A stretch of 64,000 nucleotides of DNA from Perna viridis (Eukaryota). Location: contig CM074515.1 in assembly GCA_037379345.1 (NCBI GenBank), positions 24,056,001-24,120,000 of the forward strand, read 5' to 3'. Within the stretch, counting starts at the first letter, position 1. Every line of letters begins with the position of its first letter. The position numbers were made by a program. This document shows positions 42,001-62,800 of the stretch, in pieces.

Positions 42001-45000
42001 ACACACTCGTAATGAACTCAATTTAAACTTCCAAAGAGTGAAACTTGCCATCATGTTAACCAAGAGTCGTAAATGTAATATATGATCAAAGTCAGGGTGT
42101 CACACTAAGAATTTTGAAAAAAATACTTTGACTTGATGACGTGCGTTAAGAAAACCGTTCAGAGATTTTATTGCATTGATGTCTTGTAAATACAGTTCGC
42201 TCATATTTTACGCACACTTTTTATCAAGTAATGCAATATTGTCTCATACGTATATGTCTCATTAATTTTGCTTTTATCTGTTGTTGGATAGAGTTGGGGA
42301 CAATTTTTATAGGTTTAAACTGGTCTGCGGCTGGCATGTTAGCTAAACTGTGCGTAGTCGTTAATTTGTACATATGTGTCAGTTACAAATCGGTTTCTTT
42401 ATTTCCGTTGTAAAAAAGGAACCATACCTTTTTGAACTGATTTCAGGTATGTTTAGTTGTGTAATACTTTTCCACAATGGCCAGATTTTAAAGGGACAGG
42501 GAGTGGTCACGTCAAATTACTTTAACGCCGCCGCATTTTTTGTGCATGTTCACAAGTCAGGAGTTTCTAGCCTTTGTATGTCTCGTTTTGTTTTCACCTT
42601 CGCTTTATTTTCATGTTACTTGAGTATATAGGGGCAACTCTTTCGTTGTACCTGTGTATAAAGATGTTTTTGGGCCAGCTCCAGCCTGCCCTGTGGTGTA
42701 ATGGTTTCCTTGAAGACCAATTGGTGGCTTTGCGCTGATATTTTCAACCCGGTGGTGTTGTTGTGTCTTTGATATATTCACCAAACATATTCTCGTTATA
42801 TAGTATACGAATTTCTAGTAAAAAACTATTTGCAGATTTATATTTATGCAACACAAAAACCAGAGTGCTGTATTTGTATCGATGGGTCGTCACAATTCAC
42901 CTTATCCAGTGCACATCTACAAAATTGCAGAAATTATTATTGTTGAGGTTGAAAACAGAATTGTATATTGAACGCTGTGCGCAACGTCATAGCATATTAC
43001 AACTTTGATAAAAAGTTATACACAGTCATTCGGAGAACTTTCAAATTTGTTTTCATGAAAGAGTGCTATCATACTTGCTATCTCAGACTGTACCATACTT
43101 TTGAACAAATATTTTTTCTTATGATTTGAAAAGAAACCAAATATATTGTGTATGCCTAACCGCATTACACGTTTGAAACGATTAATAAAACAAAGAAGTT
43201 TTCATTCTAATATCAGAAGCAGAATATTGCATTATATCTAGAAAAATAATACAAAAATGCATATCTATATATATATATATACTTATTCAGATACGTCCTT
43301 CCATCTGTACCACATACAAGTGCTTTGTCAGCAAGAGAACACGAAACTCTGTCTTTGTTGTCACAGAACAGTTGTTGCATTTGATCACGCGATGGAGTAG
43401 GTCCTTGTCTAATTGTTGTTGGTATTGTTGATGGTGAAGGTGTTGTGGTGCTTATGGTAGTTGACTTTTGTTGACTCGTTGATTTTGATGGTTGTGTAGC
43501 AATTGATGTTGTCTTGCTCATCACAGTTGTTGTTGGATGACGTGCTAATGTGGATGGCTGCGTGGTAATAGATGGTTTGATACCTAGTGTCGTTGGTTGA
43601 CGTGCTAATGTGGATGGTTGCGTGGTACTAGATGGTTTCATACCTGGTGTTGTTGATTGCTCTGTGAAATAGTTAGTTGTAACTTGTACTGAAGCCGATG
43701 GAATTTTTGTTTTTAAAGATGTCGATTGTTTCATCGATACCACCATTGTTGTAGGGTGTGTTTTGGATATTGTAGAACTCATTGACGATTCAATCATATT
43801 TTGCGTTGTTTTTATCTGTGAAGTGGAAGATGAAAGCAGATTCATTATTTTAGAAGATGTAGTGGTTGAAAATGGTGCTTCAGATGTAGAGGAAATTCGT
43901 GTTGATGATTTAATTGGTTGCCTTGTAGTAGTTCTGATCTGCGCTGTAGTTTTCGTAAACAATGTGGGTAATCGGGTCGCTGACATTGTAGTTTTTAAGG
44001 ATAATTCCGTCTTCATGGACAAAGAAGTTTGTGTTGGTGCATTAGTTGTTGAAATTGGTGTTAGTGTTATTGGCTTTAACGATTGTTCTGTTGACGCTAC
44101 AGTTGATGGCGTCGATGGCATGTCCAAACAACCGAAGTTTGTGTCGAAAATGATGGAACTATCTGCACATTGGGCTTTATCAAAATAACAGCTGAAATGA
44201 GGAAAAATAATTGATATGGAAAAAATTCCTTATAACCAGTGATACTGTATTCAAGTTAAAGGGAATGCCTATCACCCTAGTAGTAGTTGAGTATACATAG
44301 TTGTAGAACAAAAGAAAAAAAAGAAGCAGACCATCAACACCTGTTTTCTTTCCACGCATAAAATAAAGTAAACATTTGTTGATGTAACGTTATTAAACAA
44401 ATCATAACGGCGCCACGCGTTAGCAACTGGCAGAGCCTGAGATACACATAAGCTCTTGGGTTGATTTCAGTAACTTCACGATTGTCTTCTTAACTTTGTT
44501 ATCAACAGTTTGTAGAAGCTTAATTCTGAATGTAGGTTCAATCTCAGGAAATCCACTGCTTATGTCCCGCATGGAAACTTATCCTGTTTGATTATTTGTG
44601 ATTTTCGTTTTCGAAAAAAAAAACATTTGGTAATTAATTTTGCATTGGAATACATTTAACATGATGTAATTACTTTTATGTCCTGTTATAAATGCAGGTT
44701 TTCCAAGTCGGGATGCGTTACGGGTCATTTCTTTTGCAAAAATGGATAGAATTATTACTTATCAAGGAGTTTCGATGTAATTTTGGCATGAGATATGATA
44801 ACTTACAAATTCGAGTAGACGTGTCCTTGTGTATCGCAAACTCTTTCATCTTTATCAACTGTCATCTTGCTACAGTCTAGATGGACAATCTGGAAACATA
44901 ATTCATGGAGACTGGTGGTTCCAAATACACCTTGAATCACCATTACTACAATGTAATAACCTTATCTATGATATTTCAATTCTTTGATTAAAATAAATGC

Positions 45001-59800: not shown

Positions 59801-62800
59801 TGTCGGTGTTGTTGTTGGTTGTAGGGTTGTTGTTGGTTGTCGGGTTGTTGGCGTTGTTGTTGGTTGTTGGGTAGTTGACATTACCGTTTTTGATGTAACG
59901 ATAGGTTTGATCGATGATGGACCCTGCGTTGTGGCAACAACTGTGTTTGACATCGACGATTGTTTAGATGTACTCGTTAATGGAGGTATTGTTGTACTTA
60001 GTAAACACATGTAAGCTGTATCTAATTGTATACTGTTATCTGCACACTGGGCTTGATCGAAAAAACAGCTGAGAGAAGTAAAAATTTAAACAAGATTCAT
60101 TTCAATATAGGCAGATCTTTTAAGTTTTCCTAGAATTATATAAGTCCTATGAATGTAAAACTCAGAATAACCCCAGGGGATTGACAGAATCTCTTCATCT
60201 TCTAACATTTACTTTATCCGTTTTAGAGTACAAACAATTGAATTTGGCAAAATGGTCATATCCAGCACTAGAACGACACAATAAACCACATTGTCAGCCA
60301 ACAAAAATGAGTGTTGCTAATGCTTAAGTCAATGACATGAATGGTTCATTATAGGATGTAATCTCTTCATCGCCCATCCTAAAGCAAGTGTGTACCCACT
60401 GGTAAGATTAGAATAAAACCATCGTTAATGTTGAAATGATGTCTTCCTGTTTTACCCAAGGCAATGTATAAATATGCGCTCCCTTTGAAATTAACAAAAT
60501 AGACAAAAAAATTATAGTCAGTTAGATTTATTTATCAAACGAATGGTTCAATAGAGCCTGTTCGCTTTAGACTGAGATCCATGTAATGGAAATTTATAGG
60601 CTTTAAGAAAAATGTCACCTCAAGGCCATCCATGGGTTTTTAATGAACACTCCACAGGGCAGGTTGCATCTGATCCCAAAATAACATTATACACCGAAAT
60701 ATTTCCCCTGTATATTCCAGCAACATAAAAGTAAACTGAAAGTGTTAACGAAACAATACAAACATAGGCCAGAATTTCCTGACTTGGGACAGGCCCCTTA
60801 AAAAAATTGCTGCGGGGTTTGAGTACTTTGGTATGATCACTACCCTCCCCGTTTTTAAAATATATTTGTTTGTTTGTTTGTTGGGGTTTAACGTCCGAGC
60901 AGCAATATTTCAGCTATATTTAGACGATGAACATGAAATTGATGATAAAATGAACATGAAATGATGATGAAATGAAAAAGGGATGGGACACAAGGACAAT
61001 GGGGTCGACAAATTTTGATTGCCACTGGAAATAGGGAGAGGTGGGTAGGGTCAGGCAATTTAGCCTCCTGTGGCGGAGCCCTATGGTTCCTACTCCGGGA
61101 GAATACCACAGTAGGGTTCCTTAACGTGCGAGGAACGTGGCATCTTTCCCAACACGGTGCACCACTATGGTTTGCGGTCAGGTTTTCCGTATTATAGCCT
61201 GACAACCCCAGCATGTAACACGCCAGGGGTACCCCATTCCACCACCTGGGGCACACATTCTAGTTGCTCTGTGGGCAGAGCGCCCTAGCCCCCGGCTTAG
61301 CACTATTTAGTCGCCTTTTACGACAAGCCGGTTTTAAAATATGGCCACTGTGGAGAACATATTCAGTAACTACATACAGTGACTGAATGGAATCATTGAT
61401 AGGTCTAATTTTGATGAGACTGACAATTAAACACACCTAAAAATCAGTTAAAAGATATCCGAAACCCTTGATAAACATATATAAAGGAACAGATTATATA
61501 GGTTACACGAAGGAACGTTAACTGTAATGCCAGCTCCAGACCATTTTAAACCTACAAGAACTTATGCCCTCACGTATATCTTTCCAAATTCTTCCATTGA
61601 GGATTTGAGAACCACTGTACATCATAAGTCATACAATGGGGATACAAATAATGTCATGCCGAAAACTCATTTTAAACGTAGTATTTTATTTCTGTGTAAA
61701 GACCCTGTAAGTGAATCAATTTTGATACTAAAAAATTACATCTTTAACGATTTGACAACAATATCATAACAATAACTCTTACGAATAAAATATGGTTACA
61801 TTTATACATCTTACAAATTTTTGTAAACGTTTCCCTTTGTATCACAGACTCGCTCATCCGAATCCACAGTCATAGTACTACAGTCCAGGTTCACGATTTC
61901 TCTACATAAATCTTGATGACTAACGGTAGCGTATACCCCATATAGTATTGTCACACCTGAAAAGACGTTTTTTTTAAAGTTAAAATTAAAAATGTATAAT
62001 GAAAATGTAATTTCAATTGGACCCAGTGTGGTTTGTAGTACATAAAATAGATGCAGTTAAAGGTAATTCCCTAGCTTCAGTATCGATAAAAGGCAAGAAT
62101 ATAACGTTTTTAATAGTTTCATTGTTTATTTTTTTTTCTAGATATCGATGCATCTATACTTAGCAGTAAAGTTGATTAAAATTAAAGTATTCAAGTGATT
62201 TCTACAAAATTCCTTCGATGTGCTTTGTGAATGATATTTTTGTCAAGAACCTATATCGGATCGAGAAGCTATTTAGTCGACTTACCTATTGCATAACAAT
62301 AAAACGTATCTCAATTTAATATATGAGATTTTATGTCATAATATGTTCAACGATATAACATGTTTACCTAATTATCGATGTCGGGATAATATGTTTTGTT
62401 TTGTCTTTGGTATTGAGAACCAGGCTTGCCCCATTAATTTCACGTGACAGGAACCGTGATGAAATTATTATCAAAACAAATGCGAAGTATAACAGAATAC
62501 AAATGAAATATTTGATGAAATGGCATATGAATATCGGCAAAAAAAAACCAAACAAACAAAAATCAAAAACCAAACAAACTTAAAAACGGGATGTAGGAAC
62601 TACACCAACAAAAAATAAAAAACAAACAAAAAAAAAAAAAAAACAAAAAAAAAAAACAAAAAAAAAAAACCATGATATTTTGATTATGTCTTTGAGAGAG
62701 ACCCCAACGTTTATTGTATGTATAACTGACATTAAATTAAGAAATAAATCACGGAAACCTTATGTTATCATTGTTTTACCACGGGCTGACAATTTTTGTT

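What the first reader, a model, noticed from the sequence alone, without database searches (positions are those of the whole stretch)
42844..61956. Tandem array of split-Kazal/mucin cassettes with interchangeable splice phases
Every Kazal-like domain is cut at the same point (Y-x-N-x|C) by a phase-2 intron. N-half donors: 61815, 59628, 54664, 44807, 43283. C-half acceptors: 60068, 53777, 53256 (decayed), 44191, 42916. Any upstream donor can join any downstream acceptor in frame and rebuild a six-Cys domain. K1 has no terminal exon that I could find, so its 59628 donor may use 53777, 44191 or 42916. K2's phase-1 donor (53680) is also compatible with K3's 44945 acceptor. Inference: a combinatorial source of hybrid protease-inhibitor-like domains with mucin spacers of very different lengths (about 10, 95 and 250 aa), e.g. 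for mucus or shell/byssus matrix.
Basis: partly seen in the sequence, partly recalled or inferred. Interest (0 to 1): 0.65.

Follow-up and report, generated by a model that had tools for sequence, protein, structure and literature searches.

The report
Three tandem mussel-type Kazal inhibitor genes
This stretch holds three neighbouring copies of an ordinary mollusc gene for a secreted protease-inhibitor-like protein with a mucin-like spacer, each with its own start and end, so nothing calls for mixing of pieces between copies.

Summary
The sequence observation is real. On the minus strand, five Kazal N-halves end Y-x-N plus two bases before GT.

The key premise is wrong. K1 has its own terminal exon at 56909..56843: a good acceptor, a phase-2 entry, a C-x6-C-x12-C half and a stop right after the last Cys. 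So five N-halves pair one-to-one with five intact C-halves lying directly downstream.

Each unit also has a candidate first exon: ATG, nine codons in all, then G|GTATGT. K1 and K3 end in stop codons. K2 is a shortened one-domain copy with a decayed last exon.

An annotated Mytilus galloprovincialis protein of 183 aa has the same layout (signal peptide, Kazal, PTS linker, Kazal, stop). Unspliced ORFs of that gene break off at the same intron points. At least 509 representative proteins are related.

The matching splice phases are therefore inherited from whole-gene tandem duplication. Combinatorial splicing is unsupported, though untested at the RNA level.

This is a new member of a known kind, of low interest.

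The parts
63214..63241 (-). K1 candidate exon 1: ATG, nine codons in all, plus G, then donor GTATGT (phase 1)
   Evidence: 1 of 7 ATG-to-phase-1-donor candidates upstream of K1. It is the only one with nine codons in all and G|GTATGT. Searches show the same length and donor as in K2 and K3. Inferred; no RNA evidence.
61815..61956 (-). K1 exon A: end of the signal peptide plus the N-half of Kazal domain 1 (phase-1 acceptor, phase-2 donor)
   Evidence: HMM N E=1e-19; 63% identical to P0004 residues 11-56
59628..60068 (-). K1 exon B: C-half of domain 1, 99-aa PTS linker, N-half of domain 2
   Evidence: Pfam Kazal_1 25.9 bits (cut-off 21) on residues 121-146, profile 1-26/49; ovomucoid 1yu6_C E=3.1e-7
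56843..56909 (-). K1 exon C: C-half of domain 2 plus TAA stop.
   Evidence: HMM C E=2.3e-14; 52-62% identical to the last 21 residues of P0030, P0037, P0017 and P0004
57460..58345 (-). Extra copy of K2 exon 1 plus about 840 nt upstream of it, lying inside K1's last intron
   Evidence: 97.9% identical over 887 columns to 55546..56429; ATG and G|GT intact; no inverted repeats
55561..55588 (-). K2 candidate exon 1: ATG, nine codons in all, plus G, then GTATGT
   Evidence: The duplicate of this exon at 57462..57519 is 81% identical over 58 nt to the K3 exon-1 region 47434..47491; the K2 copy itself aligns to K3.
54664..54802 (-). K2 exon A: end of the signal peptide plus the N-half of the Kazal domain
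   Evidence: HMM N E=1.8e-19; 73.8% nucleotide identity to K3 exon A
53669..53777 (-). K2 exon B: C-half of the domain plus 11 residues. It then either uses the G|gtaag donor at 53680 or reads through three more codons to TGA, which ends at 53669. AATAAA lies 32 nt further on.
   Evidence: HMM C E=2.3e-13
53190..53256 (-). Decayed remnant of K2's last exon (fifth Cys lost, indels)
   Evidence: Local DNA alignment to K3's last exon and its flanks, score 68, with four gaps in the coding part, 10 bases in all; no protein-HMM signal
47448..47475 (-). K3 candidate exon 1: ATG, nine codons in all, plus G, then GTATGT
   Evidence: similarity to K2's exon 1 is limited to about 58 nt around the exon
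44807..44945 (-). K3 exon A: end of the signal peptide plus the N-half of Kazal domain 1
   Evidence: HMM N E=1.7e-21
43283..44191 (-). K3 exon B: C-half of domain 1, 254-aa PTS linker with 60-nt repeats, N-half of domain 2
   Evidence: Pfam Kazal_2 16.1 bits, below the 22.8 cut-off, on residues 283-302
42844..42916 (-). K3 exon C: C-half of domain 2, two more residues, TAA
   Evidence: HMM C E=1.3e-14

Best explanation
The region holds three old tandem paralogues (K1, K2, K3, all on the minus strand) of one four-exon gene.

Gene plan:
- Exon 1 gives the ATG and the first nine codons of a signal peptide, ending at a phase-1 intron.
- Exon A gives the rest of the signal peptide and the N-half of Kazal domain 1.
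- Exon B gives the C-half of domain 1, a Pro/Thr/Ser-rich (mucin-like) linker and the N-half of Kazal domain 2.
- Exon C gives the C-half of domain 2 and the stop.

K1 and K3 keep this plan, with linkers of 99 and 254 aa. The linkers differ in length mainly through short tandem repeats. K2 has lost the linker and the second domain. It ends shortly after domain 1, and its old last exon is decaying.

The products are most likely secreted, O-glycosylated, one- or two-headed Kazal-type serine-protease inhibitors. The phase-2 intron one residue before the fourth Cys is an inherited feature of this gene family, so its identical position and phase in every domain follow from duplication.

Shown: the exon anatomy, the one-to-one pairing of halves, the stops, homology to an annotated Mytilus protein, and purifying selection. 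Inferred: the first exons, secretion, glycosylation, inhibitor activity and independent transcription.
For: Splice sites and frames were read directly from the sequence.

There are exactly 5 N-halves and 5 intact C-halves among 3490 six-frame ORFs, and each N-half is followed by its own C-half 0.4-2.7 kb downstream.

K1's terminal exon is at 56909..56843. It is 52-62% identical to the C-terminal 21 residues of four family members.

The first-exon candidates in all three units have the same length and the same G|GTATGT donor. K1 and K2 exon A hold no ATG, so an upstream coding exon is needed.

The profile of the three exon-A peptides found 3 proteins among 63 candidates. One is NCBI 'uncharacterized protein LOC143080814 [Mytilus galloprovincialis]', 183 aa, with the layout signal peptide, Kazal, PTS linker, Kazal, stop. 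It scores Pfam Kazal_2 52.3 bits in two stretches.

The unspliced ORFs P0002, P0025, P0005 and P0031 depart from the spliced form, or end, exactly at Y-x-N plus one residue. P0002 and P0025 also depart just before residue 10 of P0004. So the same introns exist in the Mytilus-type genes.

The family is large: 509 representatives at E <= 1e-3 and 132 at E <= 1e-10. In 30 members that I chose from the 150 listed for similar length, 10 Cys are invariant and 2 nearly so.

Non-synonymous differences are far fewer than synonymous ones. For K2-K3, pN is 0.22 against pS 0.55 (dN/dS about 0.26). For K1 against K2 or K3, pN is 0.23-0.25 against a saturated pS of 0.83-0.85.

The PTS linkers hold tandem repeats.
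Against: No transcript or protein evidence for any of the three genes was found. The exon-B search (80-256 aa) returned only the window's own unspliced ORF, 1 of 24 candidates. The exon-A search (82-2000 aa) returned no spliced K1, K2 or K3 product.

The first exons are only 28 nt and rest on pattern and on length agreement with one predicted Mytilus model.

Six of the 8 exon peptides gave no Kazal hit in Pfam on their own, and K3's hit is below the cut-off. Whole window domains could not be scored because exons were not joined.

The first AATAAA or ATTAAA after K1's stop is 765 nt away, inside K2's upstream region, so read-through from K1 into K2 cannot be excluded.

A near-identical second copy of K2's exon 1 lies inside K1's last intron, so the K1 and K2 transcription units may overlap.

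K1 domain 2 has Gly at the position aligned to the ovomucoid P1 residue (the P1 assignment is recalled), which is unusual for an inhibitor.
Confidence: 0.78

Rival explanations
1. One reading: the array is a combinatorial device. Donors of upstream N-halves are spliced to acceptors of downstream paralogues to make hybrid Kazal domains with alternative spacers.
For: All five intradomain donors and all acceptors share phase 2, so every such join would stay in frame. No canonical poly(A) hexamer lies within 765 nt of K1's stop. A copy of K2's first exon sits in K1's last intron.
Against: K1's own last exon exists. The halves pair one-to-one. Each unit has its own start, and K1 and K3 have their own stops. 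No shared constant exon exists. Domain-1 and domain-2 C-halves are different sequence types (listing). The Mytilus homologue is one unit long. No hybrid product was seen in the protein searches, though that is weak evidence.
Confidence: 0.05
2. K1, K2 and K3 are exons of one long multi-Kazal gene, like the 500-1800-aa multi-Kazal proteins in the family search.
For: Many relatives have 5-23 Kazal stretches. K2's phase-1 donor at 53680 matches K3's phase-1 acceptor at 44945.
Against: K1 exon C and K3 exon C stop directly, or two residues, after the last Cys. Every unit begins with a hydrophobic signal-peptide-like stretch that would be internal in a long protein. The long relatives I read show no such internal segments (4 read of the 150 listed).
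Confidence: 0.03
3. K2 is a pseudogene, not a working one-domain gene. The array has two live genes and one wreck.
For: K2 lost the linker and the second N-half. Its last exon has frame-breaking indels and has lost a Cys. No remnant of the second N-half was found (best scores 23-24).
Against: K2's exon 1, exon A and exon B are open, keep all six Cys and have canonical splice sites. K2-K3 dN/dS is about 0.26 over 66 codons, though that averages both lineages. A stop and AATAAA follow closely after domain 1.
Confidence: 0.3
4. The proteins are structural or binding components of mucus or a matrix. The Kazal modules serve as follistatin/agrin-type binding modules, not as protease inhibitors.
For: Domain 1 of the Mytilus homologue aligns best to the follistatin Kazal-like subdomain (whole-sequence E=3.8e-4, best stretch 14.9 bits). 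Domain 1 has an 11-residue Cys2-Cys3 loop. K1 domain 2 has Gly at the aligned P1 place. The long PTS linkers are mucin-like.
Against: Domain 2 carries the standard VCG-x-DG-x-TY-x-N inhibitor-type motif, scores above the Pfam Kazal_1 cut-off and matches ovomucoid. Kazal inhibitors are reported as highly expressed in mussel digestive gland and foot (PMC5549309, passages), but these particular genes are not named there.
Confidence: 0.2

Closest known systems
Mytilus galloprovincialis LOC143080814, 'uncharacterized protein' (P0004, 183 aa)
   Same: Same order of parts: a 9-residue first-exon piece, signal peptide, Kazal 1, PTS linker, Kazal 2, stop after the last Cys. It shares the inferred intron points. 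It is 57-64% identical to the three exon A peptides and 52% to K1 exon C. It lies on the same 102,858,672-bp contig as the best match of the window's GPR156-like neighbour.
   Different: Its linker is shorter (57 aa). It is a predicted protein with no stated function. It is no closer to any one of K1-K3 than they are to each other, so orthology is open.
Kazal-type serine protease inhibitor domains (Pfam PF00050/PF07648; ovomucoid 1yu6, follistatin 2b0u)
   Same: Six-Cys framework, the VCG-x-DG-x-TY-x-N-x-C core, and Pfam and PDB sequence matches.
   Different: Cys4-x6-Cys5 spacing as in follistatin-type (non-classical) domains. Domain 1 has a long Cys2-Cys3 loop and DT in place of GS/GT. The domains are separated by mucin-like linkers. 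Inhibition is untested.
Gastropod conkazal/schistosomin genes (PMC13101452; passages read)
   Same: [quoted passage not shown]
   Different: There the phase-2 intron lies between the 6th and 7th of eight Cys. By the disulfide map the paper gives, I read that as between classical Cys5 and Cys6. Here it lies one residue before Cys4. They are single domains with no PTS linker.
Variable-exon arrays (clustered protocadherin/UGT1A type, Dscam type).
   Same: Tandem, phase-compatible, homologous exons on one strand.
   Different: Those arrays share constant exons or a single promoter. Here each unit has its own start and (K1, K3) its own stop, and there is no constant exon.

Membership tests
Kazal-type inhibitor domain | Six Cys with the Cys3-x6-Tyr-x3-Cys4 core and a following Cys5 and Cys6 | tested here: met
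   Read half by half. All 5 N-halves carry C...C...C-x6-Y-x-N. All 5 intact C-halves carry C-x6-C-x12-C. Adding the one split codon gives Y-x3-C.
Kazal-type inhibitor domain | Score above the curated Pfam cut-off | tested here: inconclusive
   Only half-domains could be scored because exons were not joined. K1 domain 2 N-half scores Kazal_1 25.9 against a cut-off of 21. K3 domain 2 N-half scores Kazal_2 16.1 against 22.8. Six of 8 exon peptides gave no Kazal hit. The full-length homologue P0004 scores Kazal_2 52.3 bits in 2 stretches.
Kazal-type inhibitor domain | [quoted passage not shown] | not tested
   Structure prediction was not accepting jobs, and a joined window model was not to be made.
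Kazal-type inhibitor domain | Tight, substrate-like inhibition of a serine protease through the loop after Cys2 | not testable with these tools
   Only the residues at the aligned P1 place can be read. In domain 2 these are Gly (K1) and Leu (K3); in domain 1 they are Thr, Gln and Lys (the P1 rule is recalled).
Two-Kazal/PTS-linker family typified by Mytilus LOC143080814 | Order of parts: signal peptide, Kazal, PTS linker, Kazal, stop | tested here: met
   K1 and K3 exons align colinearly to P0004. K2 keeps only the first domain.
Two-Kazal/PTS-linker family typified by Mytilus LOC143080814 | Introns at residue 10 (phase 1) and one residue before Cys4 of each domain (phase 2) | tested here: met
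   In the window. In the Mytilus-type gene: inferred from where the unspliced ORFs P0002, P0025, P0005 and P0031 leave the spliced P0004. The Mytilus locus itself could not be fetched.
Mucin-like (PTS) domain | High Pro/Thr/Ser content with tandem repeats | tested here: met
   S+T+P is 56% (K1, 99 aa) and 52% (K3, 254 aa). Repeats of 60 nt and of 18/27 nt are present.
Mucin-like (PTS) domain | Dense O-glycosylation | not testable with these tools
   None.
   Each unit has its own candidate ATG exon. K1 and K3 have their own stop exons. K2 has a stop three codons past its donor.
   No transcript collection for this organism was within reach. The protein searches showed no hybrid product.

The most novel reading that the evidence does not exclude
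K1 and K2 may be overlapping transcription units. A 97.9% copy of K2's first exon and about 840 nt of its upstream sequence lies inside K1's last intron, and K1 lacks a nearby canonical poly(A) hexamer. Read-through or alternative-promoter transcripts could therefore exist. Because all intradomain introns share phase 2, a minority of them could encode hybrid Kazal domains (a K1 domain-2 N-half joined to a K2 or K3 domain-1 C-half).
Probability: 0.06. Interest if true: 0.45.

Novelty: new member of a known kind. Interest (0 to 1): 0.18.

Why it matters
It matters little beyond annotation. The region gives three gene models for a widespread but unnamed mollusc family of secreted Kazal proteins with mucin-like linkers. 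It includes a clear case of domain loss (K2) and of linker growth by short repeats.

The finding also shows that equal intron phases among tandem paralogues are not evidence of combinatorial splicing. If the minority reading were true, it would be an example of chimeric inhibitor domains made by intergenic splicing. That would interest people who study the diversification of protease inhibitors in invertebrate defence.

Tried and rejected
- **Remnant of K2's lost second N-half.** I looked between 53700 and 53150 by local DNA alignment. The best scores were 23-24, which is nothing convincing.
- **Further Kazal halves elsewhere in the window.** None were found.
- **Self-comparison by blastn.** Paralogue similarity is confined to exons. 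K1 is too diverged from K2 and K3 to be seen at the DNA level.
- **Rfam on 42000-64000.** 0 matches.
- **Pfam on ORFs in the spacers.** ORFs 45215-45670, 56512-56967 and 60888-61259 gave no hit. My first guess that 45215-45670 was a reverse-transcriptase fragment is therefore unsupported.
- **Is the 887-nt duplicate a transposon?** It has no inverted repeats and no further copies in the window.
- **Literature.** Five searches found no paper on this two-Kazal/PTS family or on an intron at this point. These covered only the open-access library held here. Supplements were not opened.
- **Poly(A) hexamers.** They occur 2.65 times per kb per strand in this AT-rich window, so they are weak evidence either way.
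- **Regular-expression count of broken N-halves in the family set.** The pattern was too loose (166 of 958 'unfollowed' motifs, mostly noise). Only the individually read cases are used.

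
Full report
**Scope and limits.** The window has no N. I do not take it for human: its only named relatives are Mytilus proteins. So whole-domain Pfam scores, signal-peptide scoring and structure prediction of the window's own proteins were not done. The genome-contig collection holds only bacteria and archaea, so I did not use it. No transcript data were within reach.

**Checking the observation.** Reading the minus strand confirms every coordinate.
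- Three exons (here 'exon A') end at 61815, 54664 and 44807 with ...AAT TT|gtaag.
- Two exons (here 'exon B') end at 59628 and 43283 with AAC AA|gtaag and AAT AA|gtata.
- All five therefore stop two bases into the codon after Y-x-N.
- Exons starting at 60068, 53777, 44191 and 42916 follow a pyrimidine tract and AG. Each gives one base and then a Cys codon.
- 53256 does the same but is degenerate.
- The linkers between the last Cys of one domain and the first of the next measure 99 aa (K1) and 254 aa (K3). K2 has 11 residues before its donor. S+T+P is 56%, 52% and 45%.

**The missed exon.** A motif scan of all six frames found one more C-half on the same strand, at 56846..56908. The sequence there shows a strong acceptor (...ttcattccttag) and one base that completes the split codon. 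Twenty-one codons follow, of the form C-x6-C-x12-C, with TAA straight after the last Cys. This exon, 56909..56843, lies 2.7 kb downstream of the 59628 donor. It is 52-62% identical to the last 21 residues of four family members.

HMMs built from the five N-halves and the five C-halves were run against all 3490 six-frame ORFs of at least 12 aa. They found exactly five of each (E <= 1e-12 and <= 7.4e-12). The next best scores were E = 0.37 and 0.26. So every N-half has its own C-half as the next Kazal piece downstream:
- 61815 to 60068
- 59628 to 56909
- 54664 to 53777
- 44807 to 44191
- 43283 to 42916

The premise that K1 has no last exon is wrong.

**First exons.** Exon A begins in phase 1 in all three units, with a hydrophobic stretch. 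In K1 and K2 it holds no ATG, so a short upstream coding exon is required. I listed all ATG-started open stretches of 4-30 codons ending in a phase-1 GT[AG] upstream of each unit. That gave 7, 8 and 43 candidates. One in each unit has the same form, namely ATG, nine codons in all, one G, then GTATGT. They are at 63241..63214, 55588..55561 and 47475..47448. K2 and K3 resemble each other here only over about 58 nt around the exon. That matches the rest of the genes, where similarity is also confined to exons. These exons are inferred, not shown.

**K2.** K2 has exon 1, exon A and a short exon B. After the domain come 11 residues. Then either the donor G|gtaag at 53680 is used, or the frame reads through three more codons to TGA, which ends at 53669. 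AATAAA lies 32 nt further on. Joining 53680 to the old acceptor at 53256 would also stop after three codons (read). The 53256 piece aligns to K3's last exon at the DNA level, with four gaps in the coding part, 10 bases in all, and has lost the fifth Cys. No trace of a second N-half remains. K2 is therefore a one-domain derivative or a pseudogene.

**Relatives.**
- K1 exon B found only the window's own unspliced ORF, 1 of 24 candidates at 80-256 aa.
- A profile of the three exon A peptides, searched against longer proteins, found 3 of 63 candidates. Two are unspliced ORFs from an unnamed source. The third is NCBI 'uncharacterized protein LOC143080814 [Mytilus galloprovincialis]', 183 aa.
- That protein reads signal peptide, Kazal, 57-aa PTS linker, Kazal, stop after the last Cys. 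It scores Kazal_2 52.3 bits in two stretches.
- The window's exons align to it in order.
- Unspliced ORFs of the same or similar genes (P0002, P0025, P0005, P0031) leave the spliced sequence, or end, exactly one residue after Y-x-N. P0002 and P0025 also leave it just before residue 10. So the phase-1 and phase-2 introns sit at the same points there.
- A full HMMER search with the Mytilus protein gave 509 representatives at E <= 1e-3, 132 at E <= 1e-10 and 10 at E <= 1e-30.
- I chose 30 of the 150 listed for similar size. They share the layout, with 10 invariant and 2 nearly invariant Cys and linkers of very different length.

**Age and constraint.** Over exon A and the first C-half (66 codons, counts summed per exon):
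- K2 against K3: pS 0.55 and pN 0.22, so dN/dS is about 0.26.
- K1 against either: synonymous sites are saturated (pS 0.83-0.85), with pN 0.23-0.25.

The copies are old and have been kept as coding sequence. The three exon A peptides are about as far from each other (60-64%) as from the Mytilus protein (57-64%).

**What it is.** It is three tandem paralogues of a four-exon gene for a secreted Kazal protein with a mucin-like linker.
- Domain 2 is standard. Its N-half in K1 passes the Pfam Kazal_1 cut-off on its own (25.9 against 21). It also matches ovomucoid (E = 3.1e-7).
- Domain 1 is divergent. In the Mytilus homologue it aligns best to follistatin's Kazal-like part.
- The Cys4-x6-Cys5 spacing is the non-classical type.
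- The residue two places after Cys2 is the P1 position by the usual rule, which I recall and did not test. In domain 1 it is Thr, Gln and Lys. In domain 2 it is Gly (K1) and Leu (K3). Such variation is usual for inhibitor families.
- The linkers contain short tandem repeats: 60 nt in K3 and 18/27 nt in K1. That explains the length differences.

**Intron position.** One paper on gastropod Kazal-fold genes reports a phase-1 intron just after the signal sequence. It also reports a conserved phase-2 intron between the sixth and seventh of eight Cys (PMC13101452; passages read). The phases match those here. By the disulfide map in that paper, however, that intron lies between classical Cys5 and Cys6, whereas here it lies one residue before Cys4. 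From memory, not from any call, the vertebrate SPINK1/ovomucoid intradomain intron is also downstream of Cys5. So the position seen here looks specific to this family. I found no paper describing it in five searches of the open-access library.

**The combinatorial idea.** Against the idea:
- K1's own last exon exists.
- The halves pair one-to-one.
- Each unit has its own start and stop.
- There is no shared constant exon.
- Domain-1 and domain-2 C-halves are different sequence types.
- The homologue is one unit long.

Two points leave it open:
- The first canonical poly(A) hexamer after K1's stop is 765 nt away. Such hexamers occur 2.65 times per kb per strand here.
- An 887-nt, 97.9% identical copy of K2's exon 1 and upstream region lies inside K1's last intron.

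Junction evidence is what would decide it, and I could not obtain any.

**Surroundings.** The array is bounded on the low side by a convergent GPR156/GABA-B-like 7tm_3 gene on the plus strand at 38.5-41.3 kb. Its exon at 39282-39680 is 65% identical to the M. galloprovincialis protein and 63% to the M. edulis one, 2 of 70 candidates. Beyond it lies a multi-Ig gene. The M. galloprovincialis GPR156-like protein and LOC143080814 are reported on a contig of the same length, 102,858,672 bp. That fits conserved linkage but does not prove it. The identity levels suggest a bivalve related to Mytilus but not Mytilus itself; this is an inference. Mussel tissue atlases report Kazal inhibitors as highly expressed in digestive gland and foot (PMC5549309; passages), but do not name these genes.

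**Verdict.** This is an ordinary tandem gene family, a new member of a known kind.

Noticed in passing
window 57460-58345 versus 55546-56429: A recent local duplication: 97.9% identity over 887 alignment columns, spacing 1914-1916 nt, no inverted repeats. It places a second intact copy of K2's first exon (ATG at 57503, donor after 57476) and about 840 nt of its upstream sequence inside K1's last intron, upstream of K1's terminal exon.
   Followed up: partly
window 46394-46537, 48660-48809, 49187-49294, 52124-52269, 57314-57467: A dispersed repeat of about 145 nt with five copies at 80-88% identity. One copy abuts the duplicated segment in K1's last intron.
   Followed up: no
window 45800-46537 and 49189-49879: An inverted pair of about 740 nt at 72% identity in the K2-K3 spacer and K3's first intron. 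The nearby ORF 45215-45670(+) has no Pfam match, so the element is unclassified.
   Followed up: partly
window 56512-56967 (-): A 151-codon open frame overlaps K1's terminal exon in another frame. It has no Pfam match. By eye the stretch looks T-poor (composition not computed), so it is probably a chance ORF. It is the frame that a phase-1 donor joined to K1's last acceptor would read.
   Followed up: partly
window 38533-41339 (+): Exons of a class-C GPCR (Pfam 7tm_3), 65% identical to 'putative G-protein coupled receptor 156' of Mytilus galloprovincialis. It is convergent with K3. A 265-codon last ORF (40542-41339) has no Pfam match.
   Followed up: partly
window 25561-33482 (-): At least five exons encoding immunoglobulin I-set/Ig_3 domains of a multi-Ig gene. 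The ORF 30743-31180 between them has no Pfam match.
   Followed up: partly
window 42485-42744 and 60609-60861: An inverted repeat pair (70% over 268 nt). One copy is just downstream of K3's stop and the other is in K1's intron between exons A and B.
   Followed up: no
window 53811-53849, 62607-62669, 54966-55135: A run of 39 A (plus strand) lies close to K2's exon B acceptor tract. An A-rich run of about 60 nt lies upstream of K1's exon A. A 66-nt repeat of 2.6 copies lies in K2's first intron.
   Followed up: no
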